Source: an uncultured bacterium (lineage in GTDB: Bacteria > Planctomycetota > UBA8108 > UBA1146). From it: a stretch of 64,000 nucleotides of DNA. The stretch covers positions 24,706 to 88,705 of the forward strand of contig CAJXMG010000004.1 of the NCBI GenBank assembly GCA_913056395.1, read 5' to 3'. Below the pieces are notes generated by a model, which saw only the letters and a list, made by a program, of their open reading frames with translations, had not been told where the DNA came from and made no database searches. Of this stretch, positions 34,480 through 58,456 are shown one piece after another (positions within the stretch are counted from its first letter, which is position 1; the number at the start of each line of letters is the position of its first letter). The position numbers were made by a program, and so were the translations under genes.

Positions 34480-34626
34480 ATCGATCCCTTTCTTGGAACT
34501 GGGGACATTATTTTTTCATGTGCGGTCTCCAGCAAGGGGTATCATAAAGGCTATTGTTGGTTTGATAAAAATCGCGTCAAGGCTGTGTCCCGTATCTCAT
34601 TCTACGCGATCAGAGTTTTTATCCTG

Positions 34627-36915
34627 ATGAACAGGACCAATACCGTGAAAATCAGTTTTTCGCTATTTGAGATTCCAGGAGTATCGAGCCTGCGTTACTT
34701 CCTGATTTTCGCCACGTCAATTTTTCTGATTTCGGCGGTACTCCCCTCCAGTGCCCACAGCCAATGCCCTCCGGGCTCATGGGTATTGACCGGGCAGGTG
34801 GTCGATGAGGCCGGGAATGGTATATCCGGTCTGGACCTCGATTTGGCCAGCGGAACGACGGGTCTTGCACTCCTCGTTTCAGGGGACGTGACACTGGCGG
34901 ATGGCACATTCAGCATGACGATTTGCCAGGTGACCACTCCGGGCACGTATCTTCTGAGCGTCAATCCCCAGTTGGACGAATTGCTGTTTCCCATCGAAGA
35001 CCTCCCGGTCTCCCTCAGTGGATCGACTTCTCTGGGAGTTTTGACTCTGGATACGGCGGCGATCATCACTGGAAGAGTGATCGGCGAGAATTTTGAGATC
35101 CTCCCTGCTGTCGATCTTGATTTCACCGATGCGGTAACGGGAGCGGTACAGGTATTCTCCGGGGATTACACGATTGTGGATGGCACTTTTTCGACAAAGG
35201 TGGTGCCGGGCTTCTGGGACGTCCAGTTCACCGCGAGCCCTCTGAGCACTCCCTTGCAGATGGTTCCCCGTGAGTTAAGAGATGTTTTGGCCACTACAGT
35301 CACAGACTTGGGTGATGTCCGACTTCGTCAGGGACGTTTTCTGACGGGAACCGTTTTGAATCCTGCGGGATCTCCGGTTTTCAATGCTGACCTGGATGCA
35401 CGTGATCTGATCACCGGTGAAAAAATCGTGACTCCGGGTGACAATACCAACTCTTCGGGAGTCTTTGGAGTTTGGGTTCCCGAAGGTGACCTGGAAATCG
35501 AAATAGAACCACCTAATGGGTCGACACTGGTGCCGCTACTCCAGGAAATCAATGTTCCCACAACCGGAGTTGATCTGGGAATCTTGACGATGGTTGAGGG
35601 AGTCGCAGTTTCGGGAGTGGTCATCGATGGCGCCCAATCGGTGGTGCCGGGAGTGGATCTGGACTTTCTGATCTCTGCGAGTGGAGTGGAAATTCCTACT
35701 GCGGATGACAACGCCAACTCCTCTGGTCAGTTTTCGGTGCAGGTGGTCCCTGATACCTACGATATTGCCTTCAGGCCCTCATTTATCACGGGTCTGGCTC
35801 CATTGGTGCTGCCCAGTGTTACTGTGGCCACCAATACTGATTTGGGGACGATTCTGCTTCCGGCTGGGGCAGCTTTGACCGGGACGATTCTTGCTGGAGG
35901 AGTCCCGGTGGCGGGTGCAGAAATCGAGTTGTTGAATCCGGGGACCGGCTCCTTTACCTACCTCTTTGGTAATGACACCGATGGATTGGGTTCATTCGCA
36001 ATCCGACAAACACCTGGAATCTATGACCTCAGAGTGATCCCACCCATCGGAAGTGGATTTCCGATCTATGAAGAGGCCGCTATCGATCTCACAGCGGATC
36101 TCAATCTCTCAATTGATCTTCTTGGCGGACCTCCGCCGACCCCTCCCAATCCTGTGACAGCCTTTGACTGTTGTTGTCCGGGAGACGTGGTGTTGCAGTG
36201 GACCAATGGCGATGCCGATTATGATCTGATTCAGATTTCGAGACAGGGTACGTTTTTGACGAATCTGCCGGGAACCTCCACAGGATTCGTGGATGTTTCT
36301 GCTCCTCCAGCTTTCCTCGAGTATCAGGTGATACCGATTCGTAACAGTCTCACGGGAGCGCCTGCGGGGTGTACTGTCGACAACTCACCGACTCAGACGA
36401 CTCCTCCCGTCGAAAATCTTGTGTGTGAGCAATCGGGGAGCGGAGTCACCCTTTCCTGGACGAATGCTTCTGCCACCTATGAAGAAATCCAGCTTTATCA
36501 GGATGGTGTTTTTCTCAGCACCCTTTCCGGTACTGATACGGCCATCTTTATCGACGGACTCTCTGCGGGAATCTATCAATGGGAAATCATTGCTGTTGAA
36601 GGAGGTGCGGTTTCAACTGGGCAAGTCTGTACAGTCGATGTGATCCTTGGACCCGACCCCGTCTTCCTCCGTGGGAATGCAAATGGAGATACTTCGGTTA
36701 ATGTTGCGGATGCCATCACTATTCTGGAGTACCTCTTCAGCGGTGGAGCCACTCCTGACTGCCTGAGCGCCCTGGACGTCAATGATTCTTCGGCGGTCAA
36801 CATTGCGGACGCCATTCATTTGCTGGGATTTCTTTTCTCGGGAGGAGTCCCTCCTGAGTTGCCTTACCCCAATCCTGGGAGCGATCCCACACCGGATACC
36901 CTGCCGTGTAACTGA
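34627..36915 (+). CDS. secreted modular protein A: 5 CarboxypepD_reg-like repeats + 2 Fn3-like modules + dockerin-like C-terminus
   Basis: ORF 34585..36915 (ATG at 34627; a GTG start at 34585 is also possible). Hydrophobic signal/anchor. Five ~90-aa repeats of the type xLTGxVxD..G.P..GADLD...G......D..G.F. C-terminal double Ca-loop module. Confidence 0.8.
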   Translation: MNRTNTVKISFSLFEIPGVSSLRYFLIFATSIFLISAVLPSSAHSQCPPGSWVLTGQVVDEAGNGISGLDLDLASGTTGLALLVSGDVTLADGTFSMTICQVTTPGTYLLSVNPQLDELLFPIEDLPVSLSGSTSLGVLTLDTAAIITGRVIGENFEILPAVDLDFTDAVTGAVQVFSGDYTIVDGTFSTKVVPGFWDVQFTASPLSTPLQMVPRELRDVLATTVTDLGDVRLRQGRFLTGTVLNPAGSPVFNADLDARDLITGEKIVTPGDNTNSSGVFGVWVPEGDLEIEIEPPNGSTLVPLLQEINVPTTGVDLGILTMVEGVAVSGVVIDGAQSVVPGVDLDFLISASGVEIPTADDNANSSGQFSVQVVPDTYDIAFRPSFITGLAPLVLPSVTVATNTDLGTILLPAGAALTGTILAGGVPVAGAEIELLNPGTGSFTYLFGNDTDGLGSFAIRQTPGIYDLRVIPPIGSGFPIYEEAAIDLTADLNLSIDLLGGPPPTPPNPVTAFDCCCPGDVVLQWTNGDADYDLIQISRQGTFLTNLPGTSTGFVDVSAPPAFLEYQVIPIRNSLTGAPAGCTVDNSPTQTTPPVENLVCEQSGSGVTLSWTNASATYEEIQLYQDGVFLSTLSGTDTAIFIDGLSAGIYQWEIIAVEGGAVSTGQVCTVDVILGPDPVFLRGNANGDTSVNVADAITILEYLFSGGATPDCLSALDVNDSSAVNIADAIHLLGFLFSGGVPPELPYPNPGSDPTPDTLPCN
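36661..36912 (+). other. dockerin-like module of protein A
   Basis: NANGDTSVNVAD..ILEYLF and DVNDSSAVNIAD..LLGFLF, with tail ..DPTPDTLPCN. Confidence 0.75.
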
Positions 36916-36955
36916 TTCGCCTTTTATGGGCGAAGTGGATTCTTGAATCCCCCCT

Positions 36956-39883
36956 TTGGAAGCGGGAAAATCGGTCTGGGCTATTCAACGAGGAGGACTC
37001 TTGATTCATGCAACAGCCAGGGGGCGGTTCACCGTATTCTCAGGATCCTGGATTCTGTTCGTGATCCTGTCTCTCGTACTGTTCACCGGAAAAGCACAGG
37101 CACAGAGTCAAATCTGGTATGTGGATGCATCGAATGCCGGAGTCAGTGGCACGTCGTGGAGCGATGCTTTCTCCAATCTTCAAGAAGCGTTGTTGTTGGC
37201 CCTGCCCGGGGATGAAATCCGTGTTGCCGGTGGCTCCTACAGACCCGATTCCGGCGCAGGTCTGATTCCGGGAGACCCTTCGACCCGATTTGTATTGCCC
37301 TCAGGCATTTCCATGCTGGGTGGATTTGCAGGGAGTCTCGCGACCGACCCTGATCTGCGAAGCCCGGATGTGTATCGAACCGTTCTCGATGGACGTCTTC
37401 AGGGGATTCATGTTTCTGCGGCGGAGGGACTCGATTCTCCCTTCTGCGGTTTGAATGAAGATCTTCCTTGCGCCACCTTGCAAAAGGGAATCGATCGGGC
37501 TCTCGAGACCGGTTTGAGAATCGTCAGGGTTCAGGCCGGGGTATACACGGAAACAGTCACTCTTGCAGACGACCTGATTATTCAGGGGGGATACGACCTC
37601 CAATGGGATTGGGCGCCCGCAGAGACTCCTGGTCATGAGGTGATTCTGACCGGTGGGATCAATGGAGACGGTCAAGCGGTCACCGTTGAAGCACGGAATC
37701 TCGTCATCGGAACCACCCTTGCTCACTTGAAGATTGAAGGCCCCGTGGCTTCCGGTTCTGTTGCAGGTGTGGCGAGGAGTTCTTATGCCATCCATGCAGT
37801 GGACTCTAATCTGCAACTGGTTGCGGTGGTGATCGAGGCGGGATCCGGCGCAAACGGTCTCGCGGGCGAGCCTGGTACAAACCTTGGCGGTAATCCTGCT
37901 GCTGACGGGCAGGCGGGTGGAAATGCGGATTCCTATTTCTCTTTCTGCGACGCAACGGCCTTCGGTGCCGGGGGACTCGCCGGTGGAGGCGGCCCCACCG
38001 GTGGTGGCAATGGCGGTGGCGGCGGAACGATGGATTCCAACTGTTGTGGGACGGTACCGAATCCCTTCTGCGACAGTTATGACGCCACCGGAGGATCTTC
38101 TGGAGCGGACGGTGCGGGCTTGCCTGGCTGGGGCCAGGGAGGCGGAGGCGGCTCGACCTGCAATGGTGGAGGCGATGGCGCTCCAGGCTCCCAGGGGTCT
38201 TCCGGTCAGGGAGGTGCGGGTGCCAGTGCAGGCGGTGGCCTGAGTGGAATCTATTGGGCCGGAAATTCCGGATCATCGGGCCTGCTGGGAACTGCCGGCG
38301 GCGGTGGCGGCGGCGGTGGTGGATCCGGGGGCTGCGACAACGGAACCTTTGGAACTGACAGTTATGGAGCCGGAGGAGGTGGTGGTGCCAGCGGCGGGAT
38401 TCCCTCTCCCCAAGCGGGTGCGGGCGGCAGTGCCGGCGGCAGCACCTTCGGTATCTTCGTTCTCGGCACCGGTAATGTGGAATTGATCCAGTCGACGATT
38501 GTCAGAGGAGAAGCGGGCACCGGCGGAATGGGTGGAACTCCCGGAGAAGGACAGCCGGGAGGGATCGGAGGTGCCGGTGGAAATGGTGCATCTGGAACTC
38601 CCAATGCAGGCCGTGGAGGTGATGGAGGAGATGGGGGCGCCAGTGGTGGTGGCGGTGGCGGCAGTGGTGGCGACAGCCATGCTGCATGGAGCGATGGCGC
38701 AACCATCCTTGCCTACGACACTTCAGTGCTGGGGGGACTGGCCGGATCAGGTGCCGCCGGTGGAGTGAATCCCGCTCTCGATGCGGTGACCCAGGGATCT
38801 GAGGGAGCAGGCGGTCAGGTTTTTGACGGATTGACACATGTCACCACAACCGATCTTCCAGTAAGCCCCCTCGATCGTTCCAGACAAATTCTCGAACTCA
38901 CCGGTGAGAACAGCGTTGTTGATGGGTTCGTGATTCAGGGTAGTTCCAATCAGTCGAATGAGATCCCAGTGGTGATCGGATCCGCTGGGCATGTCTTGAG
39001 TCGTTGTCACTTTTTGAATCTCTCCTCAGGAGCGCTCACGACGATTCAGGTCAATGGCTTCACGATTTTTGAAAATTGTCGTATCGAGAATTGCCAGTCG
39101 GCAAACACCGGCGCAGTGGAACTTCTGCCGAGTACGGTGTGTCGTATGGAAAACTGCATCATTTCCGGCAATCGATCGGTTCAGGGACCAGCGGTTCTGG
39201 AAGGGGCTGAAGACAGTGTATTGTTGATGATCAACAACACGCTGACAGGAAATGAAAATTCGGTTTCTGGCGGAATGATTGTGTTGGATTCGACTGCCCA
39301 GGCCGTGTTGCAAAACAACATTCTCTTCGGAAACTCCACTGTGGATGCTGAGCTGCAATTGCCTACGACCGCAGTTCTGATCCGGAACATCGTCGAAGGG
39401 GGTTGGCCCGGAGATAATTTTGACGTCGACCCCGAACTGACAGGAACCGGCGAGTTCCCGTTTACACCGGGGCCAGGCTCACCCTGCGTCGATCAGGCAT
39501 TGTCCGTGGCTTCCAGCACGACTGAGGATTGTCTGGGACAACCGAGGAATGTCTGCCAGGGAGTGGATATCGGGGCTGTCGAGCGTCAGACCTGTGGGGA
39601 CGGAGATTCCCTTGATTTCGTCCGTGGTGATTGCGACGGCAATGGATCGATCGATTTGGCGGATGGGGTTGCCTTGCTCGACTACCTCTTCATCGGTGGA
39701 GCACTGACCTGTCTGGCTACGGCAGATGTCAATGACGATTCAGATCTGAATCTCGCTGACCCGGGAACCCTGCTCGCCTATCTCTACATTGGCGGATCGG
39801 CTCCGCCTGAGCCATTCACCAGTTGCGGTCAGGATCCAGACGGATCACTGATCGCCTGTGAACTCTACGGCGGTTGCCCATAG
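36956..39883 (+). CDS. secreted modular protein B: parallel beta-helix + Gly-rich region + dockerin-like C-terminus
   Basis: 975-aa ORF with a TTG start at 36956 or 37001. Signal peptide ..LVLFTGKAQAQ. IWYVDASNAG..GDEIRVAGGSY resembles a beta-helix N-terminus, with PbH1-like repeats (NCIISGNRS, NNTLTGNEN, NNILFGNS). C-terminal double Ca-loop module. Confidence 0.8.
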   Translation: MEAGKSVWAIQRGGLLIHATARGRFTVFSGSWILFVILSLVLFTGKAQAQSQIWYVDASNAGVSGTSWSDAFSNLQEALLLALPGDEIRVAGGSYRPDSGAGLIPGDPSTRFVLPSGISMLGGFAGSLATDPDLRSPDVYRTVLDGRLQGIHVSAAEGLDSPFCGLNEDLPCATLQKGIDRALETGLRIVRVQAGVYTETVTLADDLIIQGGYDLQWDWAPAETPGHEVILTGGINGDGQAVTVEARNLVIGTTLAHLKIEGPVASGSVAGVARSSYAIHAVDSNLQLVAVVIEAGSGANGLAGEPGTNLGGNPAADGQAGGNADSYFSFCDATAFGAGGLAGGGGPTGGGNGGGGGTMDSNCCGTVPNPFCDSYDATGGSSGADGAGLPGWGQGGGGGSTCNGGGDGAPGSQGSSGQGGAGASAGGGLSGIYWAGNSGSSGLLGTAGGGGGGGGGSGGCDNGTFGTDSYGAGGGGGASGGIPSPQAGAGGSAGGSTFGIFVLGTGNVELIQSTIVRGEAGTGGMGGTPGEGQPGGIGGAGGNGASGTPNAGRGGDGGDGGASGGGGGGSGGDSHAAWSDGATILAYDTSVLGGLAGSGAAGGVNPALDAVTQGSEGAGGQVFDGLTHVTTTDLPVSPLDRSRQILELTGENSVVDGFVIQGSSNQSNEIPVVIGSAGHVLSRCHFLNLSSGALTTIQVNGFTIFENCRIENCQSANTGAVELLPSTVCRMENCIISGNRSVQGPAVLEGAEDSVLLMINNTLTGNENSVSGGMIVLDSTAQAVLQNNILFGNSTVDAELQLPTTAVLIRNIVEGGWPGDNFDVDPELTGTGEFPFTPGPGSPCVDQALSVASSTTEDCLGQPRNVCQGVDIGAVERQTCGDGDSLDFVRGDCDGNGSIDLADGVALLDYLFIGGALTCLATADVNDDSDLNLADPGTLLAYLYIGGSAPPEPFTSCGQDPDGSLIACELYGGCP
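37841..38690 (+). repeat. Gly-rich low-complexity coding tract inside protein B
   Basis: Runs such as GGGGGGGGGSGG and GGAGGNGASG. GGN-codon-rich DNA that creates Pro/Arg-rich shadow ORFs on the other strand. Confidence 0.8.
39614..39880 (+). other. dockerin-like module of protein B
   Basis: DCDGNGSIDLAD..LLDYLF and DVNDDSDLNLAD..LLAYLY, with tail CGQDPDGSLIACELYGGCP. Confidence 0.75.
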
Positions 39884-39925
39884 ATCGGGAATCGATTTCA
39901 GACTCCTGAACTCATGCTCCTGAAA

Positions 39926-41620: not shown

Positions 41621-41740
41621 GGAGCTTTCTGCGAAACGACCGGAGTCGTCACAGTTATGAAACGCTGGAATAACAGTGCCCACAGAGCCTCCTCATATCC
41701 CATCAAGGATAACCACCGAACACGCCCGATACGAGTCGGA

Positions 41741-43219: not shown

Positions 43220-43238
43220 GGAAGTGTCCCTTTCGGTG

Positions 43239-46133: not shown

Positions 46134-46268
46134 AAATCCTGCCTTGTTCCCAAGAATGCGATCTGTTTGTTGTGCAGGTTTGCCTGCCTGTGAACTGATT
46201 TAGATTTTACCCTCGGGTATCAGTGATCCAAGACTGTAAACGGCAGGAAGATCTGGACAGGGAGCGGT

Positions 46269-46811: not shown

Positions 46812-46821
46812 GGCGTCCTCC

Positions 46822-48063: not shown

Positions 48064-48216
48064 GGTGTTTCCTTTGCTAGCTGGGAGATCCCTACATTCG
48101 AAAGTCGGAATCGTAGACCGGAAAGCATTATCGATGATCTGGATGGGCATGGAAGAGGGGGGATGTTCTGGAATGATGCTGACCTGATCTTGCCAAAAGT
48201 GTGAGAGAACAGGAAA

Positions 48217-49740: not shown

Positions 49741-49813
49741 GTGATTTTTAAAATTTGTGGGTACCGGTGTGCAGTTGCATTCGGTGCTCTTTGATTCGCC
49801 CATGAGGTGATTG

Positions 49814-51211: not shown

Positions 51212-51225
51212 GCAAGAATTGAGAT

Positions 51226-51266
51226 TCCGATGGCCTTCGTGGGTGATCTCTGCGAAGGCCATCGGA
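51226..51266 (+). terminator. stem-loop after gene D (terminator-like, no U-run)
   Basis: 14-bp perfect stem tccgatggccttcg / cgaaggccatcgga with a 13-nt loop. Confidence 0.35.
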
Positions 51267-51435
51267 TTCAAGATAGAATCCGAAGATCCTTATATGTTTT
51301 GGGGCTTCGAAGAATCAGGGCCTGAAGGCCCTGTCGTCAATTTGAGGACCCTCCTTGTCTTTGGGAGGGGAGTGAGCACAGGGGTTCAAATACCCCGAAA
51401 TTTCCGTCCCCCGACGGAAGAAAGAGGAGTTGCTA

Positions 51436-53313
51436 ATGTCGCCCAAACCCTGTTTGAAATCTATTGTGACGGCAGTGCTATTGGTCTTCATGGTGTCGCA
51501 AGTGTCTTTGCTTCAGGGACAGGTTTTTGAAGTTTCATCTCCGAACCCTTCCGTACCTGCGGGTTCCGGGTCTGCCAGTTTCGATCTGGTCTTTTCGATC
51601 GACCAGATCTCTGGAGCTCTCGAGCAGACTTGCGGTTTTCAATTCCAGTACTCCCATGATCCCGCTGTTCTTTCGGTAAGTGGAAACGGAGCCGTCCCTT
51701 CCGGTGATCTGGCTGCCCTCGATGGGGGTAATGGTCCTGGTTTCTTCGATGGGCAAACCTTCCCCACAGGATTCACCGTTGGAACTGTCTTTTCGTTGTC
51801 CTTTTCCGAGACTCTGACCTTCGATGTTCCCAAAGAGGTCATCACCGTCGGTTACACGGCAGTTCCAGCGGCAATTGCCAACCTCTCCCAGGACCTTCTG
51901 ACAGTGGTTTCGATGTCGAACACTTTGGGTTCACCGGTGATCGACAACATCATTTCAAACTGTGCCGGAGGAACCGAAACACTCTTGGGAGCGGATTGCA
52001 CCGTCACCCTGATGCCGGCTCCGCCGCTGGACTTCCAGATCACTACCCCGGATCAGAACCTTCTGGCTTCAGAAGTGATCGCCCAGGGAATCGCGGCAGA
52101 CTTTGAAATCGTGCAGGTCGCAACAGATCCCGCAGATATTACTCCAACGGACGGCTTCAGTTTCGCCTACGGACATGATCCTTCGTTGTTGACCATCGAT
52201 TCTGTGGATCTGGGGGCGGGCCTCTCCGGTTTGGGTGGGGGTGCTGGACCAGAGTTTTTCCAGGGAAGCCTCTTCCCTGCGGGAGCCGCTGTCGGTTGCC
52301 TCTACGACTTCCAGATTCAGGAAACGGTGACCTTTGATTCAGCGATCCTGGTGGCCACTTTCAACTACAGTTCTGCTGGCGGGTTGGCAAATCTGACCAA
52401 TCCGGTGACGACCCAGATTCAGCAATCCACAGTTCTGGGGTCTCCGGCCATCGAGAGTGTTGTGGTGGTCGGTGGGGGAACTGCCATTCAGGCCACCGTT
52501 AACCCGGCTTCGTTTACCATTCAGCCGACACCTGCTTTTACTCTCAGTGCTCCTGATCAGACCGCCTCTTTCTCGCCCACTTCAGGTACCGGCAGTTTTG
52601 ATGTCACCTTTGAACTGTTGGAGGACCCGTCGAATAGTGGGTTCCCCAATGGGACTCAGGGATTCTCCATCGGACTGGGGCACCCTTCCTCATTACTGTC
52701 AGTCACCGGTGGGGGAGCTGCAGGAGTGACTCTGGGCTTGAATGGCGGAAACGGACCCGATTTCTTTGACGTCAATACCTACACAAACGGTATCACTTTC
52801 GGGTGTGTTTACTCATTCACGAATCCAGGTACCAACACGCTCCTTTTTGACGTTGCCCAGCCGCTGGTCTCTGCCAGCTATGAGACGATTCCCGGTGCTT
52901 TCACCGGTCAGCAAAACCCGGTGGTTGTGTCACTCACCAGCAACAGTGGGTTGGGATCTCCTCCTGTGGAGCAGGTTGTGGTTGTCAACAGTCAGTCCCA
53001 AGGCCTCTTTGTTGCCGGGTGCGAGATTGAGTTGGCACCGGGCGGGGGCATCGATCGTGGAGATTGTAATGATGACGCCAACTTTGACATCGCCGACGCG
53101 GTGGTTCTGCTTTCGTTCCTCTTCCTTTCCGGATCCGTCAATTGCCAAAACGCCTGTGACAACAATGATGACGAACAGGTCAACATTGCGGATGCCGTGA
53201 CAGCCCTTTCAGCCCTCTTTACGGGAGGTCCGCCTCCTCCGGGTAATGGACAGTGCGGTCCTGATCCGACCCCCGGAGCCCTCAGTTGCGATACGTTCAA
53301 TTCCTGCCTGTAA
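51436..53313 (+). CDS. secreted scaffold-like protein E: 3 cohesin-like modules + dockerin-like C-terminus
   Basis: aggag lies 8 nt upstream of the ATG at 51436. Signal peptide. Three ~165-aa modules (GFQFQYSHDPAVL, GFSFAYGHDPSLL, GFSIGLGHPSSLL). C-terminal double Ca-loop module. Confidence 0.85.
   Translation: MSPKPCLKSIVTAVLLVFMVSQVSLLQGQVFEVSSPNPSVPAGSGSASFDLVFSIDQISGALEQTCGFQFQYSHDPAVLSVSGNGAVPSGDLAALDGGNGPGFFDGQTFPTGFTVGTVFSLSFSETLTFDVPKEVITVGYTAVPAAIANLSQDLLTVVSMSNTLGSPVIDNIISNCAGGTETLLGADCTVTLMPAPPLDFQITTPDQNLLASEVIAQGIAADFEIVQVATDPADITPTDGFSFAYGHDPSLLTIDSVDLGAGLSGLGGGAGPEFFQGSLFPAGAAVGCLYDFQIQETVTFDSAILVATFNYSSAGGLANLTNPVTTQIQQSTVLGSPAIESVVVVGGGTAIQATVNPASFTIQPTPAFTLSAPDQTASFSPTSGTGSFDVTFELLEDPSNSGFPNGTQGFSIGLGHPSSLLSVTGGGAAGVTLGLNGGNGPDFFDVNTYTNGITFGCVYSFTNPGTNTLLFDVAQPLVSASYETIPGAFTGQQNPVVVSLTSNSGLGSPPVEQVVVVNSQSQGLFVAGCEIELAPGGGIDRGDCNDDANFDIADAVVLLSFLFLSGSVNCQNACDNNDDEQVNIADAVTALSALFTGGPPPPGNGQCGPDPTPGALSCDTFNSCL
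51523..53037 (+). other. three tandem cohesin-like modules of protein E (about 51523-52014, 52024-52524, 52534-53037)
   Basis: Same internal signature as the D modules (GGNGPGFF, GGAGPEFF, GGNGPDFF). Confidence 0.65.
53047..53310 (+). other. dockerin-like module of protein E
   Basis: DCNDDANFDIAD..LLSFLF and DNNDDEQVNIAD..ALSALF, with tail CGPDPTPGALSCDTFNSCL. Confidence 0.8.
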
Positions 53314-53362
53314 GGTGGGTTTGAGAGATTGTTAGTCGATCAGTTTCTCTGATCTGCTTCAT

Positions 53363-53394
53363 GACCCGACCTGTCTAAAGTGACAGGTCGGGTC
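53363..53394 (+). terminator. stem-loop after gene E (terminator-like, no U-run)
   Basis: 13-bp perfect stem gacccgacctgtc / gacaggtcgggtc with loop taaagt. Confidence 0.35.
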
Positions 53395-53647
53395 CTGAAC
53401 TCTGCTCTGCTGACGTTAACCCAGCCCCTGAGCAGTAATTGCTCGTAGTCTCTCCCTCGAATACGATGGGGTGGTCGGACTATGAGGCTCTTGTTGTAAA
53501 AAAAACGATTGAAGACGAAACCTGCGAATGTTTGCAGAGTTCTCGATTTGATCAGTCTTCATTTCGACAACTTCAGGTCGTTTTTGCAACGCGTGTCGCC
53601 TTTTAGATTTCTGTCAGATCCTGCTCTTTTCGTGAGGTAGATTTTTC

Positions 53648-56600
53648 ATGAGGTTCAGTTTCAGAAACTCTCTATTCATGCTCACTCTCCTTCTTGCCCC
53701 CTTCTGTGTTTCAATTTCTGCACAGGGGCAGGCACCGCAGGAGGATTCCCTGGCCCGTCATTACCATCCAGCCACTGGGAAACTCCATTTTCTGGGTGGA
53801 TTGAATCATTCCCCTCTGGGACTGCCGAAAGGGATCACTCCTGACCTTGAAGATCCGTTGCAGGCCCTGCGTATTTACGGTGCTGAGTTTGGAATTCGCT
53901 ACCCGGAGGTTCAACTCCAGTTGTTGCGTACAGAAAAGTGCAACGTGGGTCAGATCCATCACACTTTCCAACAGGTTTACCGCGGAGTGGAAGTGTTGAC
54001 CGGAAATATCAAGGTCCACTTGAAAGCGGATGGTACTCCTCTCTCCATCAACGGAGATTTTTACTCTGTACCCAAAAAGTTGGAGATCGCTCCGAAGATC
54101 GGTTCCGAGCAGGCTTTGGAGCTTGCTGCACGTGAATTGAAGCAAGAACTTCTGATCGAGACCGATCAGCCGCGCCTCGTCATCGTCAACCCGGGTTGGT
54201 ACGGCGATGATCCCATCGATCAGCCGGTCCTCGCTCATCATCTGGTCGCCGAGGGTGACGGAATGATGGCGAAAAACATTCTGGTCGATGCAAGAACAGG
54301 AGTGGTCCTCGATCACTGGCCCGCAGTCCACAGTGCTCTTCTCAGAGAGATCTATGACGGCGCCGGTGGAGGAGGCCTTCCTGGAACCCTCGCCAGAACC
54401 GAGGGATCTCCTGCCAGCGGAGATCTGGATATCGACAACTCCTACGACACTTGCGGGGATCTGTACCGAGTCCTTTCCGATTCACTCGGAAGAGACAGCC
54501 TCGATGGCAATGGCAGCCCCATGATCATCACCGCCAATTGGAGCAGCAACATTTGCCCCAATGCCATTTGGAATGGATCGCAGGGAGCCTTCTGCAATGG
54601 GTTGGGGACCGACGACATCATTGCCCATGAGTTGGCTCATGGCCTGACCCAGTTCACCGCAAACCTGATCTACCAAAACCAGTCGGGTCAGTTGAACGAG
54701 GCGATGTCTGACATCTTTGGTGAGGTGATTGACCTCTACAACGGAAACGCTTCCGTAGCCGGAACCCCCGGAGGAACTCCCTGGCCGGTCCCAGGTACCA
54801 GTGGCTCGGGTCTCGATACCCCAAACACACCGCGTACCGGATGCAGTGACGGATCAGCACGCTGGAGAATGGGAGAGGAATCTTCCATCGGTGCCATCCG
54901 CGACATGTTCTACCCGGAGTGTTTCAATGATCCTCCGAGCACGACGGACCCACTTTACAACCAGAATGCCTGCGGTCCCTTCGACAATGGAGGGGTTCAT
55001 ATCGGCAGTGGTGTTCTGAACCATTCCTTCGCCATGTTGGTGGATGGCAAGACCTACAACGGACAGACCATTACCCCGATTGGCATGACCAAGGCTACTG
55101 CGGTCTACTTCCGTGCTCTTTCAGTCTACATGACGGAGGGAACCAGCTTCCCCCAGGCAGAGATTCATATCAATCAGGCTGCCGCAGATCTGATCAACAC
55201 CAACCCCATCGATCCACGCACCGGCGTGGGTGGAGGAGTTTTCACCCAGGCAGATGCGGACATCGTTGCTTCGGTGATGACAGCAGTGGGCATGTCCGAG
55301 CTGGTTTGTGGTCAGGTACCTCCTGGTCCTCCCCCGGCCAATGACAACTGCGACGCTGCTGTTCCGGTTTTCCTCGGACTGAATGACGTCGACAGCAACA
55401 ACGCCACCACTGGTGGTCCCGCACCTGACGACACTGCTTGCCCGGGCACCTTTATCGGTGATTGTGGCAATGATGTCTGGTACAGCTACACCGCCCCGGA
55501 GAACGGGCTTTTGAGTGTGAGCCTGTGCAGTATCGTCAGCTGGGATACTGACCTGCAGATCTTCGACGGAAACTGTGGTGCCCTAAATCTGATCGCCTGC
55601 AACGGTGACTTTGGGGGTTGCTCCACTTTCACCTCACAAGTCGACAACGTGCCCGTGATCGGCGGCAGTAACTACCTGATCCGTGTTTCCTCCTGGAGTG
55701 ATGGAACCACTGGAACAGGTCAGATGGATGTGACCTTTGTTCCCGATTCTGGTCCAGGTGTAGAGAACTGCACCAACGGAGTGGACGACGACGCCGACGG
55801 TCTCGTCGACTGTGAAGACGCTGACTGTGCAGCCAATCCTGTGTGCATTCCGCCAGCGGCGGGTGACGAGTGTGTCAGTGCGGAAGTCGCCTCTCTGGGA
55901 ACCAATCCGTTCGACAGCACCAACGCCACCACGGGAACCGATCCGATCCCGGATCCTGCGACCTGTAATCAGGGCCTGGGTGACATGCTCGGCGACATAT
56001 GGTTTGAGTATGTACCTGCTGAATCAGGTTCACTCTTCGTGAGTACCTGCTCCCCCGGCAGTTTTGACACCGACCTTGTGGCTTACACCGGATCCTGTGC
56101 TTCATTGACAGTCCTCGCATGCAATGGTGACGTGACGCAAAACACCTCGCCGACTTGTCAGCAGTACTGGTCTGAGTTGACCATCGATGTGATTGCCGGT
56201 GAGACCTACTGGTTCCGTATCGGTGCGTGGGGAACTCCCCATCCTGGTAATGGTCTTCCCGGTCCCGGAGCACTCATTCTTGATCTGACCCCTTCCGGCC
56301 CGGTCGAGGACTGCAGTAACGGATCCGATGACGATGCAGATGGACTCGCAGATTGTGAGGACCCCGATTGCTTGACCGATCCCGCCTGTGTCCCGGCGAT
56401 TCCCGGTGACGAGTGTGACACGGCTGTGGTCGCAGTCCTCGGCTCCAATGCCATCGACACGACAGGTGCAACGACGGGAGCCGACCCCATCGATGACTCG
56501 AACTGTACGGGCACCTTCCTTGGCGAGTTTGTTCAGGACGTCTGGTACCAGTTCACTCCTTCGAGCACCGGCGAGCATGTGATTGCTACTTGTGACACCA

Positions 56601-58456
56601 TCAACTTTGACTCTGACATTCTGGTTTACAGTGGCAGTTGTGGTGCATTGACTTCGATCGCCTGTAATGGTGACGGAACCGGGTGTGCCGGACTCACCAG
56701 CAGTGTTTCTGCCAACCTGAATGCCGGCGAAACGGTCCTGATCCGTGTGGGTGGCTGGAATGCCGCTGCTGTCGGTACCGGAACTCTGGAAATCAGTTCC
56801 GTGGCTCCTCCGCCGCCGCCGGAAAACTGCACCAACGGTGTGGATGATGATCTGGACGGATTGTCGGACTGCGAAGATCCGGATTGTTTTGCAGACCCGG
56901 ATTGCAACTGTCTGCCGATTTCAAATCTTCTTTGCATTCAGGGCAGCGGAACCAGCGTCAATCTCAGCTGGAACAATGGCGAAGCCTATCAGGAGATCTC
57001 TGTCATGAGAGGTGGGGCACAGATTGCCGTGCTTCCAGGCAGCAGCAGCAGTTATGTTGACTCTGGGGTTCCGTTGGGCAATCAGACCTATACGTTGGTC
57101 CCGAGCTGTACCCCGATTCAGCAAGCACCCATGGAGAACTGCAGTGTGGATGTGATTCAGACGATCGGCTTCATGTTCAGTGCCGGAGACGTCGATGGAT
57201 CCTACAGCGCTTCAGGTGCCACCTTTGAATCGGAAATCTCTTTGATGGAGCTGGCCAGCAACGCGGGATTCCCGACCGACACCGCCGGGTTCTCTTTCGG
57301 CCTTGCACACGACAATACCCTCTTTGAGGCGACGGGTGCACAGGCGGTGGGTCCTCTGGCTGCTCTGGATGGAGGAGCGGGTCCTGCCTTCTTCGACGCT
57401 TCAGTTTTTGCAAATGGTATCGGCATCGGCTGTGTTTACGACTTCAGTCTCTCACAGTCGATCCAGTTCACTTCGGCAACCGGCATCGTCTCCGTCGCAT
57501 ATGCGGCTTTACCTGGAGCGCTGTCTGGAGCGAGTGGAACCGTGACCTCCAGTCTCGATTTCGTCCAGACTCTGGGAGCGCCTCCTGTGGAATTGATTGT
57601 CTCGACAGCTGCGGGATCTGCGGTTCCTGCTGGGGGGAACTCCGGTTCCATCTCCCTGAACCCGAGCGGGTTTGTCATGACCGCCGTCGATCAGTCGGTG
57701 GAGTACCCGGAATCCACGGGAGAAGCATCCGTCACTGTTTCGATCACCCTTGAGGAGGATCCCGGAAATACCGGGTTCCCCAATGAAACTCAGGCGTTCT
57801 CATTCGGATTGGTCCATGACCCAGCGGTTTTGGCTGGTCAGGGAATCAATGCGGCCTCGATCCTTACTGCATTGAACGGCAACACGGGACCTGATTTCTT
57901 CGATGTGAACAGTTTCGCAGACGGCATGACCGTGGGTTGCGTTTACACCTTCGTGGGAACAGACGTCCTGACCTTTGCGACTGCCACCGACTTGGTGACC
58001 GTGGATTACTCAACGGTCCCGGCAGGGTTGATCGGAGCGGTTACTCCAACTGAAACCCAGTTGCAGTTCTCGCAATCTTTGGGAACTCCTCCGGTGGAAT
58101 TGGTCGTGGTCGTCGGTGCTGCCTCTCAGGGAGTCCAGGGGGAGACAGGAACCATTACACTGACCCCGGTTACCGGTACAGGATTTGTCCGTGCGGATAT
58201 CAATGACGATGCAGTGGTCAATCTTGCTGACGCAGTCCAGTTGCTGAATGCTCTCTTCCTTGGAGGAGTGACCAACTGTGACGACGCTGCTGACACCAAT
58301 GATGACGAACTGAAGAACATCGCAGATGCGGTTTATCTTCTCAGCTATCTCTTCACCAGTGGCCCGGACATTCCTGAGCCTGGTGGAAATGGAAGCTGCG
58401 GTACTGATCCGGTTGGTGATGCCCTTGATTGTGCTGAGTACAACTCGTGCCCATAA
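53648..58456 (+). CDS. secreted M4 (thermolysin-like) metalloprotease F with 3 Cys-rich beta-sandwich modules, Fn3-like module, 2 cohesin-like modules and dockerin-like C-terminus
   Basis: 1602 aa with a signal peptide. HELAH at aa 327-331 and NEAMSD with Glu351, 20 residues after the second His as in thermolysin. Downstream modules read from the translation. Confidence 0.9.
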   Translation: MRFSFRNSLFMLTLLLAPFCVSISAQGQAPQEDSLARHYHPATGKLHFLGGLNHSPLGLPKGITPDLEDPLQALRIYGAEFGIRYPEVQLQLLRTEKCNVGQIHHTFQQVYRGVEVLTGNIKVHLKADGTPLSINGDFYSVPKKLEIAPKIGSEQALELAARELKQELLIETDQPRLVIVNPGWYGDDPIDQPVLAHHLVAEGDGMMAKNILVDARTGVVLDHWPAVHSALLREIYDGAGGGGLPGTLARTEGSPASGDLDIDNSYDTCGDLYRVLSDSLGRDSLDGNGSPMIITANWSSNICPNAIWNGSQGAFCNGLGTDDIIAHELAHGLTQFTANLIYQNQSGQLNEAMSDIFGEVIDLYNGNASVAGTPGGTPWPVPGTSGSGLDTPNTPRTGCSDGSARWRMGEESSIGAIRDMFYPECFNDPPSTTDPLYNQNACGPFDNGGVHIGSGVLNHSFAMLVDGKTYNGQTITPIGMTKATAVYFRALSVYMTEGTSFPQAEIHINQAAADLINTNPIDPRTGVGGGVFTQADADIVASVMTAVGMSELVCGQVPPGPPPANDNCDAAVPVFLGLNDVDSNNATTGGPAPDDTACPGTFIGDCGNDVWYSYTAPENGLLSVSLCSIVSWDTDLQIFDGNCGALNLIACNGDFGGCSTFTSQVDNVPVIGGSNYLIRVSSWSDGTTGTGQMDVTFVPDSGPGVENCTNGVDDDADGLVDCEDADCAANPVCIPPAAGDECVSAEVASLGTNPFDSTNATTGTDPIPDPATCNQGLGDMLGDIWFEYVPAESGSLFVSTCSPGSFDTDLVAYTGSCASLTVLACNGDVTQNTSPTCQQYWSELTIDVIAGETYWFRIGAWGTPHPGNGLPGPGALILDLTPSGPVEDCSNGSDDDADGLADCEDPDCLTDPACVPAIPGDECDTAVVAVLGSNAIDTTGATTGADPIDDSNCTGTFLGEFVQDVWYQFTPSSTGEHVIATCDTINFDSDILVYSGSCGALTSIACNGDGTGCAGLTSSVSANLNAGETVLIRVGGWNAAAVGTGTLEISSVAPPPPPENCTNGVDDDLDGLSDCEDPDCFADPDCNCLPISNLLCIQGSGTSVNLSWNNGEAYQEISVMRGGAQIAVLPGSSSSYVDSGVPLGNQTYTLVPSCTPIQQAPMENCSVDVIQTIGFMFSAGDVDGSYSASGATFESEISLMELASNAGFPTDTAGFSFGLAHDNTLFEATGAQAVGPLAALDGGAGPAFFDASVFANGIGIGCVYDFSLSQSIQFTSATGIVSVAYAALPGALSGASGTVTSSLDFVQTLGAPPVELIVSTAAGSAVPAGGNSGSISLNPSGFVMTAVDQSVEYPESTGEASVTVSITLEEDPGNTGFPNETQAFSFGLVHDPAVLAGQGINAASILTALNGNTGPDFFDVNSFADGMTVGCVYTFVGTDVLTFATATDLVTVDYSTVPAGLIGAVTPTETQLQFSQSLGTPPVELVVVVGAASQGVQGETGTITLTPVTGTGFVRADINDDAVVNLADAVQLLNALFLGGVTNCDDAADTNDDELKNIADAVYLLSYLFTSGPDIPEPGGNGSCGTDPVGDALDCAEYNSCP
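54626..54700 (+). other. M4 zinc-binding site coding segment (HExxH ... E)
   Basis: cat gag ttg gct cat at 54626-54640. The gag codon for the third ligand in GQLNEAMSDIFGE is at 54698-54700. Confidence 0.85.
57164..58180 (+). other. two tandem cohesin-like modules of protein F (57164-57667 and 57668-58180)
   Basis: GFSFGLAHDNTLF..GGAGPAFF..GIGCVYDF and AFSFGLVHDPAVL..GNTGPDFF..TVGCVYTF. Confidence 0.65.
58181..58453 (+). other. dockerin-like module of protein F
   Basis: DINDDAVVNLAD..LLNALF and DTNDDELKNIAD..LLSYLF, with tail CGTDPVGDALDCAEYNSCP. Confidence 0.8.

What the first reader, a model, noticed from the sequence alone, without database searches (positions are those of the whole stretch)
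34585..58456. Split cluster of six secreted modular proteins sharing a dockerin-like C-terminus, four also carrying cohesin-like modules: candidate non-cellulosomal cohesin-dockerin assembly around an M4 protease
Genes A (34627-36915), B (36956-39883), C (39926-41620, minus), D (49814-51211), E (51436-53313) and F (53648-58456) all encode signal-peptide proteins. All six end in the same ~85-90-aa module. That module contains two copies of a 12-residue loop fitting the dockerin/EF-hand calcium pattern (D/N-x-N/D-x-D/N/S-x-x-x-D/N-x-A-D), each followed by a helix (..LL..LF.GG). C, D, E and F additionally carry 1, 2, 3 and 2 copies of a ~165-aa beta-rich module. Its landmarks (GFSF.L.YD..LL ... 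G.TVG.IY.F ... final N.T.) parallel cellulosomal cohesins. That gives 8 cohesin-like and 6 dockerin-like modules in six neighbouring genes. D and E consist of nothing but cohesins plus a dockerin, so they are scaffoldin-like. A, B and F bring passenger domains: CarboxypepD_reg-like repeats, a beta-helix and an M4 metalloprotease. Proteins with both module types could polymerise or form hierarchical complexes. No glycoside hydrolase and no obvious cell-wall anchor (SLH, sortase signal) is present. The assembly, if real, is therefore proteolytic or adhesive rather than cellulolytic, and its attachment mode is open. Non-cellulosomal cohesin/dockerin modules are known to occur widely. However, a compact, self-contained scaffold-plus-protease locus of this kind in a PVC-type genome is not a system I know to be characterised.
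Basis: partly seen in the sequence, partly recalled or inferred. Interest (0 to 1): 0.9.

Follow-up and report, generated by a model that had tools for sequence, protein, structure and literature searches.

The report
Planctomycete cohesin-dockerin surface assembly genes
Six secreted proteins of an uncultured marine planctomycete carry real but very divergent versions of the plug (dockerin) and socket (cohesin) modules that gut bacteria use to build cellulosomes, here attached to a protease and adhesin-like domains; this is a widespread, untested variant of an idea already proposed for planctomycetes.

Summary
Six ORFs (A-F) end in one ~88-aa module. My own HMMs find exactly six copies of it in the six-frame window, plus seven strong and one divergent (gene C) copies of a ~170-aa module.

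Pfam does not call them: Dockerin_1 stays below threshold and Cohesin gives no hit. Structure does:
- The AlphaFold2 model of D's last module plus tail has pLDDT 91.6 and matches almost only solved cohesins (E 8e-11, TM to 0.78).
- The tail alone has pLDDT 90.2, and 26 of its 27 matches are dockerins.
- Both calcium loops are conserved.

The locus is not self-contained. The family has over 1000 clusters, and the genome matches are almost all marine Planctomycetota MAGs. It occurs in tandem arrays of up to seven Coh(n)-Doc genes. VKOR/DsbA-D-(E)-F synteny is kept down to 50% identity.

Relatives also encode dockerin-less lipoproteins (lipobox, Ig-repeat stalk, terminal cohesin). These are plausible membrane anchors, but none lies in this window.

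Best reading: a lipoprotein-anchored, hierarchical cohesin-dockerin display system for a thermolysin-like protease and adhesin-like cargo. Binding is untested. The concept was anticipated (the 2019 "planctosome"), so this is a new variant of a known kind. Interest 0.55.

The parts
34627..36915 (+). Gene A: signal peptide, CarboxypepD_reg-like repeats (about nt 34762-36144), two ~85-aa Cys-bracketed FN3-like modules (about nt 36169-36669), and a dockerin (nt 36649-36912; its tail lacks the last Cys pair)
   Evidence: ORF; Pfam CarboxypepD_reg 2.8e-15 and Dockerin_1 at 20.0 bits, below the 22.9-bit threshold; own dockerin HMM 1.4e-35; FN3-like motif
36956..39883 (+). Gene B: signal peptide, Gly-rich probable beta-helix passenger, and a dockerin (nt 39617-39880)
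   Evidence: weak NosD hit at E 0.02 and Dockerin_1 at 13.9 bits; dockerin HMM 2.1e-38; no PDB sequence relative for the passenger
39926..41620 (-). Gene C: signal peptide, unknown N-terminal domain, FN3-like module (about nt 40649-40900), divergent cohesin-like module (nt 40199-40651), and a dockerin (nt 39929-40192)
   Evidence: Dockerin HMM 1e-35; cohesin-like module at E 1e-5 to 7e-4 with the window HMM and BLASTP 31% identity over 112 aa, E 1e-8, against D module 2; missed by the wider family HMM; C-like passenger syntenic in L001 and L028
48217..49485 (+). VKOR-DsbA fusion (disulfide-forming oxidoreductase) directly upstream of D; a conserved neighbour and probable accessory for the Cys-rich secreted proteins
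   Evidence: Pfam VKOR + DSBA/Thioredoxin_4; found immediately upstream of the D homologue in 7 related loci at 50-93% identity
49811..51211 (+). Gene D: signal peptide, cohesin 1 (nt 49895-50413), cohesin 2 (nt 50417-50932), dockerin (nt 50945-51208); adaptor scaffoldin-like
   Evidence: HMM hits; AF2 model of aa 203-466, pLDDT 91.6, pTM 0.76; Foldseek gives cohesins at ranks 1-37, best 5lxv_A at E 7.9e-11; dockerin model pLDDT 90.2 with 26/27 hits dockerins
51430..53313 (+). Gene E: signal peptide, three cohesins (nt 51511-52011, 52015-52521, 52516-53034), dockerin (nt 53047-53310); adaptor scaffoldin-like and a lineage-variable insertion between D and F
   Evidence: HMM hits; present in relatives at 65% identity or more, absent between D and F in relatives at about 50%
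53648..58456 (+). Gene F: signal peptide, FTP propeptide + M4 thermolysin-like protease (nt 53912-55198; HELAH at nt 54626), three GBD_T9SS_assoc domains alternating with three acidic double-disulfide repeats (about nt 55310-56917), FN3-like module (about nt 56915-57151), cohesin 1 (nt 57152-57658), cohesin 2 (nt 57653-58162), dockerin (nt 58190-58453)
   Evidence: Pfam Peptidase_M4_C 2.5e-25, FTP 5.8e-11, GBD_T9SS_assoc 4.9e-16; NCBIfam acid_disulf_rpt 3.9e-21; active-site motifs; same architecture in L001, L002, L009 and L003

Best explanation
These genes encode parts of a calcium-dependent cohesin-dockerin assembly on the surface of a marine planctomycete, or released from it.

**Proposed mechanism**
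- Every protein is exported by a Sec signal peptide.
- Its cysteine-rich modules are oxidised, probably with help from the conserved VKOR-DsbA neighbour.
- Each protein then plugs its C-terminal dockerin into a cohesin on another protein.
- D and E (cohesins plus one dockerin, almost no linkers) act as rigid adaptor scaffoldins that multiply docking sites.
- F is a thermolysin-like protease that is both cargo (dockerin) and scaffold (two cohesins).
- A, B and C bring adhesin-like or binding passengers.
- The base of the assembly is most likely a lipoprotein with an Ig-repeat stalk and a terminal cohesin but no dockerin. Relatives encode such proteins; this window does not.
- The likely purpose is to hold proteases and binding modules together on particles or prey protein, feeding peptide uptake.

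**Shown:** module inventory, predicted folds, conserved calcium ligands, synteny, and the existence of anchor-type proteins in related genomes.

**Inferred:** that cohesin binds dockerin here, which module binds which, the calcium dependence, the cellular location, and the role of VKOR-DsbA.
For: **Fold**
- The cohesin-like module plus tail model has pLDDT 91.6. Foldseek ranks 1-37 are all cohesin modules, as are 45 of the 50 hits shown; best E is 7.9e-11 and target TM reaches 0.78.
- The tail alone has pLDDT 90.2. 26 of its 27 hits are dockerins, with rmsd 1.5-4.5 A (mostly 1.5-2.8 A over about 60-70 residues) and TM 0.67-0.84 for single-dockerin targets.

**Sequence**
- The tail profile hits PDB dockerins in its top 16 places, best E 9.5e-5.
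- 17 of 59 dockerin-only relatives reach Pfam Dockerin_1 at E <= 1e-3, best 6e-12.
- One anchor-type relative passes the Pfam Cohesin threshold: P0132, 24.8 bits against 24.1.
- Loop positions 1, 3, 5 and 12 are 80-100% conserved in both repeats across 223 modules. The two repeats are near-symmetric, (D/N)-I-A-D-A-x-x-x-L-x-x-L-F.

**System logic**
- In 78 related genome loci, 225 ORFs carry the dockerin and 147 carry the cohesin.
- Tandem arrays reach seven Coh(n)-Doc genes, followed by a large dockerin-only protein.
- Dockerin-only cargo is diverse: FG-GAP, P-domain, TIG, HYR, LTD, phosphatases, M23.
- The M4-GBD-Coh-Doc architecture recurs in four other MAG loci, and a trypsin-like version also exists.
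- The order VKOR/DsbA-D-(E)-F is kept down to 50% identity.

**Anchors**
- 23 of 25 dockerin-less cohesin proteins have a lipoprotein signal (lipobox Cys, usually followed by a Gly run). The other two are N-terminally truncated fragments.
- After the signal come Big_9/cadherin or He_PIG repeats and 1-2 cohesins, ending 3-9 aa before the stop.
- Two of these proteins lie in MAGs that also hold Coh-Doc loci: JBCCHQ01, and JAYZTT01 with the 7-gene array.
- In L086/L102 two such lipoproteins sit between a beta-helix-dockerin gene and a Coh-Doc gene.
Against:
- Pfam's curated thresholds are not met by any of the window's 14 modules.
- No anchor-type protein is in the window or in the 10-kb flanks of its close relatives. 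Attachment in this organism is therefore extrapolated from more distant MAGs (36-37% cohesin identity).
- In the genome loci the cohesin module is almost never found without the dockerin on the same chain: 142 of 147 have both, and the other five lie at locus or contig ends and may be cut off. The dockerin is at the extreme C-terminus in 217 of 225. Both patterns also fit a sorting tag.
- Linkers are nearly absent, unlike cellulosomal scaffoldins.
- The two-domain model's pTM of 0.76 could mean a fixed Coh-Doc unit rather than a free plug.
Confidence: 0.68

Rival explanations
1. The C-terminal dockerin-fold module is a sorting or attachment tag rather than a cohesin ligand. It could be a calcium-folded export signal, or a module that binds a cell-envelope polymer. 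On this reading the cohesin-fold modules are ordinary Ig-like spacers or substrate-binding domains.
For: - The module sits at the extreme C-terminus in 217 of 225 relatives.
- It ends in a conserved Cys-rich tail, C-G-x-D-P-T-x-D-x-L-x-C-x(4-5)-C-P, that canonical dockerins lack.
- It is attached to very diverse passengers, as sorting domains are.
- In the genome loci, cohesin modules almost never occur without it on the same chain.
Against: - There is no transmembrane helix, basic tail or beta-sandwich of the kind that known C-terminal sorting domains have. The module's core is the two helices and two calcium loops of a dockerin.
- No sorting-enzyme gene was seen among the neighbours scanned.
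- A separate class of proteins places cohesins at the tip of a lipid-anchored stalk and lacks the tag. That is expected for a receptor and unexplained if cohesins are spacers.
- Both partner folds co-occur in the same genomes and loci.
Confidence: 0.15
2. Binding is real, but the main product is structural. Coh(n)-Doc proteins polymerise head to tail into a branched coat, fibre or holdfast-like matrix, and enzymes such as F are minor decorations. The system would then be an adhesive or structural polymer rather than an enzyme-display machine.
For: - In the genome loci, cohesin-bearing proteins almost always carry a dockerin too (142 of 147).
- About four-fifths of them are nothing but cohesins plus a dockerin: only 27 of 142 have a sizeable N-terminal passenger.
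- Arrays of 5-7 such paralogues occur.
- Modules abut with about 2-aa linkers, suggesting rigid rods.
- Many cargo domains are adhesin-like: FG-GAP, TIG, HYR, cadherin.
Against: - Proteases with an intact active site are conserved members, and they keep tight synteny with the D scaffold.
- Phosphatases and other enzymes also carry the dockerin.
- Nothing tested here separates a structural role from enzyme display.
Confidence: 0.12
3. The dockerin binds the adjacent cohesin of the same chain (in cis). This would form a closed, self-capped unit whose role is folding stability or autoinhibition, not intermolecular assembly.
For: - The Coh-to-Doc spacer has a median of only 6 aa.
- The two-domain model has a fairly high pTM of 0.76, consistent with a fixed mutual orientation.
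Against: - A and B, and 83 relatives, carry the dockerin with no cohesin on the chain. Anchor proteins carry cohesins with no dockerin. Both module types therefore exist unpaired.
Confidence: 0.05

Closest known systems
Clostridial and ruminococcal cellulosomes (type I cohesin-dockerin; adaptor scaffoldins such as ScaB/ScaA; enzyme-bearing scaffoldin ScaA of Acetivibrio cellulolyticus)
   Same: - Same two folds.
- Duplicated, near-symmetric calcium loop-helix dockerin.
- Proteins made only of cohesins plus one dockerin resemble adaptor scaffoldins. A catalytic protein that also carries cohesins has a precedent in A. cellulolyticus ScaA (from my own knowledge).
- A hierarchical anchor/adaptor/cargo logic is suggested by the lipoprotein-stalk-cohesin proteins.
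   Different: - No glycoside hydrolase or CBM3; the cargo is a protease plus adhesin-like domains.
- The host is a diderm planctomycete, not a Gram-positive bacterium.
- The candidate anchor is a lipoprotein, not SLH or sortase.
- Sequences fall below the Pfam thresholds.
- Linkers are almost absent.
- The dockerin has an extra ~30-aa Cys-rich tail.
- In the genome loci, cohesin proteins almost always carry a dockerin too; the dockerin-less lipoprotein class is the exception.
'Planctosome' hypothesised for freshwater Nemodlikiaceae (Andrei et al. 2019, PMC6461901)
   Same: - Same phylum (Planctomycetes).
- A non-cellulosomal cohesin/dockerin complex proposed to degrade polypeptides using zinc peptidases.
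- The relatives' cargo shares its domain vocabulary: LTD, proprotein-convertase P-domain, HYR.
- Purely bioinformatic, like the present case.
   Different: - The peptidases there are M12B and M14, the anchor is an LTD protein, and the adaptor has an N-terminal dockerin.
- Here the peptidase is M4 with its own cohesins, dockerins are strictly C-terminal, adaptors are Coh(n)-Doc arrays, candidate anchors are lipoproteins, and the hosts are marine MAGs.
- I did not test whether the cohesin families are the same.
Non-cellulosomal cohesin/dockerin modules surveyed by Peer et al. 2009 (cited in PMC6461901 and PMC8542988), and the Cloacimonadota cellulosome-like complex (PMC8542988)
   Same: Cohesin and dockerin modules occur outside cellulolytic Firmicutes, on peptidases and other non-GH proteins, and are proposed to form extracellular complexes.
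   Different: - Those cases were found with standard domain models. The modules here escape them.
- A Pfam-based 2024 survey reported only one PVC species with scaffoldins (PMC11557425).
- The Cloacimonadota scaffoldin uses a T9SS-type C-terminal domain and CBMs.

Membership tests
Cohesin module (Pfam PF00963; cellulosomal type I/II/III cohesins) | Nine-stranded beta-sandwich (jelly-roll) fold superposable on solved cohesins | tested here: met
   AF2 model of D aa 203-466, pLDDT 91.6. Foldseek against PDB: ranks 1-37 are all cohesins and 45 of the 50 shown are; best is 5lxv_A at E 7.9e-11; target TM reaches 0.78. Shown for D module 2 only; the other six follow by 22-43% identity and C's by weaker similarity.
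Cohesin module (Pfam PF00963; cellulosomal type I/II/III cohesins) | Sequence match to the curated family model above its gathering score | tested here: not met
   0 of 8 window modules hit Pfam Cohesin, even at E <= 10. A profile of the 8 finds no PDB cohesin by sequence. In the wider family, one relative passes (P0132, 24.8 bits against 24.1) and two come close.
Cohesin module (Pfam PF00963; cellulosomal type I/II/III cohesins) | Binds a dockerin with high affinity | not testable with these tools
   No multimer prediction and no access to model coordinates; needs in vitro binding or AF-Multimer.
Dockerin type I (Pfam PF00404) | Tandem duplication of a ~22-residue segment: a 12-residue EF-hand-like calcium loop followed by a helix | tested here: met
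   Two loops, D-x-N-x-D-G-x-x-D/N-I-A-D, each followed by a helix, in all six tails. Loop positions 1, 3, 5 and 12 are 80-100% conserved in 223 relatives. Helices predicted at aa 15-27 and 47-59 of the module.
Dockerin type I (Pfam PF00404) | Fold superposable on solved dockerins | tested here: met
   26 of 27 Foldseek hits are dockerins, with rmsd 1.5-4.5 A (mostly 1.5-2.8) and target TM 0.67-0.84 for single-dockerin chains. E-values are weak (0.08-1.3) because the domain is small.
Dockerin type I (Pfam PF00404) | Sequence match above the curated gathering score (22.9 bits) | tested here: not met
   The window tails score 20.0, 13.9, 18.6, none, 10.9 and 10.9 bits. A profile of the tails hits PDB dockerins in its top 16 places, best E 9.5e-5. 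Relatives with the same tail reach Dockerin_1 at 6e-12.
Dockerin type I (Pfam PF00404) | Calcium-dependent folding and cohesin binding | not testable with these tools
   Needs ITC, native PAGE or ELISA with and without EDTA.
Cellulosome (as a system) | Dockerin-bearing glycoside hydrolases and a CBM-bearing scaffoldin that target plant cell wall | tested here: not met
   No GH, CE, PL or CBM3 in A-F. Cargo in 59 dockerin-only relatives is FG-GAP, P-domain, TIG, HYR, phosphatases and peptidases.
Cellulosome (as a system) | Cell-surface anchoring scaffoldin (SLH or sortase-linked) bearing cohesins without an enzyme-type dockerin | tested here: inconclusive
   No SLH or sortase signal, and no anchor in the window. 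Functionally analogous dockerin-less lipoprotein-stalk-cohesin proteins exist in related Planctomycetota MAGs. None is shown for this organism.
'Planctosome' (Andrei et al. 2019) | Planctomycete proteins with cohesin/dockerin modules, zinc peptidase cargo, no cellulolytic enzymes | tested here: met
   Planctomycetota origin is shown by the 96%-identical MAG locus L028 and by the P0001 annotation. M4 zinc protease with dockerin. No GH.
'Planctosome' (Andrei et al. 2019) | Specific parts: LTD/P-domain anchor ending in a cohesin; adaptor with N-terminal dockerin, HYR and cohesin; M12B and M14 peptidases | tested here: not met
   None of these parts is in the window. LTD, P_proprotein and HYR do occur on dockerin-only relatives in other MAGs. 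Whether the Nemodlikiaceae cohesins are homologous to these was not tested.
C-terminal sorting domain (rival filing: PEP-CTERM, T9SS CTD, LPXTG and the like) | Extreme C-terminal position plus a membrane-spanning or recognisable sorting motif, and a cognate sorting enzyme | tested here: inconclusive
   The position criterion is met (217/225). No TM helix or known sorting-domain model hit was found (Pfam and NCBIfam). No sortase- or exosortase-like neighbour was seen in the genes scanned. Cleavage cannot be tested here.

The most novel reading that the evidence does not exclude
Marine Planctomycetota possess a general, lipoprotein-anchored, hierarchical cohesin-dockerin machine for organising their surface exoproteome, built from a cohesin clade that standard domain models cannot see. 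Apart from the lipoprotein anchors, cohesin-bearing proteins carry their own dockerin. Starting from one membrane-anchored cohesin, the assembly can therefore branch layer by layer and be capped by proteases, phosphatases and adhesins. This would be the first diderm counterpart of the cellulosome principle with its own anchor type and a dedicated disulfide-forming helper (VKOR-DsbA).
Probability: 0.45. Interest if true: 0.7.

Novelty: new variant of a known kind. Interest (0 to 1): 0.55.

Why it matters
- Cohesin-dockerin pairs are among the tightest known protein-protein interactions and are widely used as building blocks in biotechnology. Almost everything known about them comes from Gram-positive plant-fibre degraders.
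- Here the same two folds organise proteases and adhesin-like proteins in abundant, uncultured marine planctomycetes. These bacteria colonise particles and degrade polymers.
- The family is large (more than 1000 clusters at 50% identity) and is annotated only as 'hypothetical' or 'Ig domain-containing'. Pfam-based surveys therefore miss it.
- If binding is confirmed, the 2019 'planctosome' idea gains concrete, testable parts: anchor lipoproteins, rigid adaptors and a conserved scaffold-protease operon.
- It would also supply a new, disulfide-stabilised set of orthogonal cohesin-dockerin pairs.
- It would help explain how diderm bacteria hold exoenzymes at the cell surface in seawater.

Tried and rejected
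- **Pfam and NCBIfam on the six proteins and on the eight cohesin-like modules.** There was no Cohesin hit, and Dockerin_1 stayed below threshold. I rejected this as evidence of absence once the predicted folds were available.
- **Profile of the cohesin-like modules against PDB sequences.** Only noise came back (AlyQ at E 0.22, steroid receptors).
- **hhalign of C's module against A1.** Discarded as circular, because A1 contains that very sequence. Pairwise BLASTP was used instead.
- **Wider family HMM built from 96 modules.** It fails to find C's module, so C's module is reported as weak.
- **Word-indexed homologue searches with profiles.** They returned only 7 and 4 proteins. The exhaustive representative search was needed.
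- **The search for related loci with broad alignments.** It failed for lack of conserved stretches. Narrower alignments worked.
- **Promoter and terminator scans around both gene groups.** Counts did not exceed shuffled controls and give no operon information.
- **PDB sequence searches for B's passenger and C's N-terminal domain.** No hits.
- **Dockerins of cohesin-bearing versus cohesin-less proteins.** I looked for distinct classes, as in type I versus type II dockerins. The two consensus sequences are nearly the same, so no such split was detected.
- **Positional orthology of cohesins between D, E and F.** Identities are all 22-43% with no clear pattern.
- **Are anchor-bearing contigs close relatives of the window?** No, only the cohesins match.
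- **Rest of the window (1-34 kb).** It holds ordinary metabolic and regulatory genes, with no further module copies and no secretion or sorting genes.

Full report
**1. What is in the sequence**

Each has an N-terminal hydrophobic stretch followed by a small-x-small site and Q. No signal-peptide predictor was available, so this is read directly from the sequence. None has a lipobox.

The last ~88 residues of all six align without difficulty at 39-59% pairwise identity. An HMM built from them finds exactly six copies in a six-frame translation of the whole window, at E 1e-35 to 1e-41, and nothing else.

A second HMM, seeded on F, recovers seven ~170-aa modules: D x2, E x3 and F x2. These score E 1e-60 to 1e-69 against a model built from those same seven modules, so the values measure mutual similarity. 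A model built from 96 relatives, with window-derived sequences in the minority, still gives 1e-44 to 1e-62.

There is one weak copy in C. It scores E about 1e-5 among the selected proteins and 7e-4 in the six-frame scan. C's copy is 31% identical to D's second module over 112 aa (E 1e-8), but a wider family HMM misses it. The count is therefore 7 firm + 1 divergent cohesin-like modules and 6 dockerin-like modules, clustered in two gene groups and absent from the other ~40 kb.

**2. Are they cohesins and dockerins?**

Curated sequence models say no, or not quite:
- Pfam Dockerin_1 scores 20.0 bits at best, against a threshold of 22.9.
- Pfam Cohesin gives no hit even at E 10.
- A profile of the eight modules finds no cohesin among PDB sequences.

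Structure prediction is unambiguous:
- The model was built from an alignment of single-module relatives. It covers D residues 203-466 (last module plus tail) and has mean pLDDT 91.6 and pTM 0.76.
- Against the PDB, Foldseek ranks 1-37 are all cohesin modules, and 45 of the 50 shown are. The best is the R. flavefaciens ScaC cohesin 5lxv_A at E 7.9e-11. Target-normalised TM-scores reach 0.78 against type I cohesins of C. acetobutylicum, C. thermocellum and A. cellulolyticus.
- The tail alone has pLDDT 90.2. It returns 27 matches, of which 26 are dockerins. Rmsd is 1.5-4.5 A (mostly 1.5-2.8 over about 60-70 residues) and TM is 0.67-0.84 for single-dockerin chains. E-values are weak, as expected for so small a domain.

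Sequence evidence agrees once profiles are used:
- The tail profile hits mostly dockerins in the PDB: the top 16 of 33 matches, best E 9.5e-5.
- 17 of 59 relatives with the same tail reach Pfam Dockerin_1 at E <= 1e-3, best 6e-12.
- One relative of the beta module passes the Pfam Cohesin threshold.
- Across 223 tails, calcium-loop positions 1, 3, 5 and 12 are 80-100% conserved in both repeats.
- The two repeats are nearly symmetric, (D/N)-I-A-D-A-x-x-x-L-x-x-L-F. In type I dockerins this pattern underlies dual binding (from my own knowledge).

Unlike canonical dockerins, the module continues into a Pro-rich stretch and a conserved Cys-rich tail, C-G-x-D-P-T-x-D-x-L-x-C-x(4-5)-C-P.

**3. The family and its context**

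An exhaustive profile search of 1.84 billion cluster representatives finds 1044 proteins at E <= 1e-3. Typical lengths are about 285, 440 and 600 aa, corresponding to a signal peptide, 1-3 modules and the tail.

A scan of one genome per species finds 533 confirmed relatives. The best 78 loci are almost all Planctomycetota MAGs, and many isolate names point to marine samples. L028 is 96% identical to the window and L001 is 77%. Two MAGs labelled Bacillota and Proteobacteria carry the same loci and are probably mislabelled.

In those 1.26 Mb of loci:
- 225 ORFs carry the dockerin, at the extreme C-terminus in 217.
- 147 carry the cohesin, and 142 carry both.
- The five without a detected dockerin lie at locus or contig ends and may be cut off.
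- Genes form tandem arrays of up to seven Coh(n)-Doc paralogues, followed by a ~1700-aa dockerin-only FG-GAP/TIG protein (for example L018 and L019).

Dockerin-only cargo includes FG-GAP, proprotein-convertase P-domain, TIG, Big_5, HYR, LTD, purple acid phosphatase, endonuclease/phosphatase and M23.

F's architecture (FTP-M4-GBD repeats-Coh-Doc) recurs in L001, L002, L009 and L003, and a trypsin-like version exists in L012.

The order C, DUF1501, PSCyt/PSD, M24 peptidase, VKOR-DsbA, D, (E), F is shared with L001 and L028. The core VKOR/DsbA-D-(E)-F is kept in seven loci, down to 50% identity. E is absent from the most distant ones.

So the 'split cluster' is an old, conserved arrangement, and D-F is its core. 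A and B had no homologues in the flanks available.

**4. The missing anchor**

Among the best 150 family members, ten lack the dockerin and stop 3-5 residues after their last cohesin. Nine of the ten have a lipoprotein signal: a lipobox Cys, mostly followed by a Gly-rich run. The tenth is N-terminally truncated. After the signal come Big_9/cadherin-like or He_PIG repeats.

A further search gave 15 more with one terminal cohesin. Fourteen have the same lipobox and He_PIG stalk, and the fifteenth is N-terminally truncated.

They belong to Planctomycetota:
- P0110 lies in MAG JBCCHQ01 and P0205 in JAYZTT01. Both MAGs also hold Coh-Doc loci, and JAYZTT01 has the seven-gene array.
- In L102 and its metagenomic counterpart L086, two such lipoproteins (about 470-500 aa and 1978 aa, the latter with 15 He_PIG repeats) sit between a beta-helix-dockerin gene and a Coh-FN3-like-Doc gene.
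- The anchor cohesin of P0110 is 37% identical to F's second cohesin.

A membrane-tethered stalk tipped by a cohesin and lacking a dockerin is what an anchoring scaffoldin of a diderm cell would look like. This is the strongest contextual argument that the cohesins are receptors rather than spacers. It is not shown for the window's own organism.

**5. Mechanism proposed**

- Export is by Sec.
- The Cys-rich modules are oxidised. F has 50 Cys and each tail has 2-6. The conserved VKOR-DsbA neighbour probably assists.
- The dockerin folds around calcium.
- C-terminal dockerins dock into cohesins.
- D and E act as rigid adaptors that multiply sites. Linkers are very short, about 2 aa between cohesins and a median of 6 aa before the dockerin.
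- F is a protease that is both cargo and scaffold.
- A, B and C are binding or adhesin-like cargo.
- A lipoprotein encoded elsewhere would serve as the base.

The M24 Xaa-Pro peptidase and the POT peptide transporter nearby fit a protein-foraging role. Only the M24 gene is syntenic in relatives.

Confidence is 0.68. Rivals are a sorting or attachment tag (0.15), a mainly structural polymer (0.12) and cis self-capping (0.05).

**6. Comparison and novelty**

The system works like a cellulosome in its module logic, but it fails cellulosome membership on cargo, CBM and anchor type. Its modules fail the Pfam thresholds while meeting the fold criteria.

The nearest published idea is the 'planctosome' of freshwater Nemodlikiaceae. 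That is a bioinformatic model with an LTD/P-domain anchor, a Doc-HYR-Coh adaptor and M12B/M14 peptidases (PMC6461901). It is cited as still hypothetical in later work. A cellulosome-like complex with peptidases was also inferred in Cloacimonadota (PMC8542988). A 2024 Pfam-based survey listed only one PVC species with scaffoldins (PMC11557425), which is consistent with this family being invisible to standard models.

The finding is therefore real and coherent, but it is a new variant of a known kind. Its new elements are:
- a divergent cohesin clade;
- strictly C-terminal, Cys-tailed dockerins;
- Coh(n)-Doc arrays;
- protease-scaffold hybrids;
- candidate lipoprotein anchors;
- a conserved disulfide-oxidoreductase neighbour.

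Interest is 0.55. A specialist would find it useful and testable rather than astonishing.

Noticed in passing
window 48217-49485 (+): A VKOR-DsbA fusion gene lies directly upstream of D. It keeps that position in seven related loci, down to 50% identity. This suggests a dedicated disulfide-forming helper for the Cys-rich secreted proteins.
   Followed up: partly
window about 36169-36669 (A, two copies), about 40649-40900 (C, minus strand), about 56915-57151 (F); also L086 559-2715 and 10692-12062: An ~85-aa Cys-bracketed, FN3-like module (C...L-x-W-x-N...Y-x-x-I-x-I...) precedes the cohesin or dockerin in A, C and F, and in distant relatives. It has no Pfam or NCBIfam match.
   Followed up: partly
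window 55310-56917 (F aa about 555-1090): Three copies of an acidic double-disulfide repeat (C-x-N-G-x-DDD-x-DG-x-x-DC-x-D-x-DC, at aa 708, 889 and 1061) alternate with three GBD_T9SS_assoc galactose-binding-like domains between the protease and the cohesins.
   Followed up: partly
window 30606-32606 (+) and 46822-48150 (-): A POT-family di/tripeptide transporter and an M24 Xaa-Pro aminopeptidase flank the cluster. Together with the secreted M4 protease they form a coherent peptide-foraging theme. M24 is syntenic in relatives; the POT gene was not found in the related loci fetched, whose flanks do not reach that far upstream in the closest relatives.
   Followed up: partly
window 41741-46133 (-): A DUF1501 plus PSCyt2/PSD1 (DUF1549/DUF1553, with a Laminin_G_3 insert) gene pair, typical of planctomycetes, sits between C and the M24 gene and is syntenic in L001, L028 and L084.
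   Followed up: no
window 13948-15333 (-) and 33409-34479 (-): Two DNA methyltransferase genes: a C-5 cytosine type and a D12-class N6-adenine type, the latter directly upstream of gene A. I did not look for partner restriction enzymes.
   Followed up: no
window 19268-21703 (-): An 811-aa protein fuses a Ser/Thr protein kinase domain to a C-terminal FGE-sulfatase (formylglycine-generating-enzyme-like) domain.
   Followed up: no
L091 3700-9744 and L090 2-3961; L093 2606-8713: L091 has a 2015-aa protein with three cohesin-like modules, no dockerin, no Pfam hit and a 115-aa tail. It may be another anchor type. L093 has a 2036-aa protein with six cohesins plus a dockerin.
   Followed up: no
L016, L026, L032, L063 (QNYK01, 'Bacillota bacterium MAG 7') and L025, L056 (JAFMMO01, 'Proteobacteria bacterium'): MAGs labelled Bacillota and Proteobacteria carry the same Coh-Doc arrays and the D-F synteny as the Planctomycetota MAGs. 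Their taxonomic labels are probably wrong.
   Followed up: no
L109 6161-10600: One lipoprotein-He_PIG-cohesin anchor (P0195) lies between a secretin gene and a prepilin-type N-methyl (DUF1559-like) gene. This hints at a possible link to type II secretion or a pilus-like export route.
   Followed up: no
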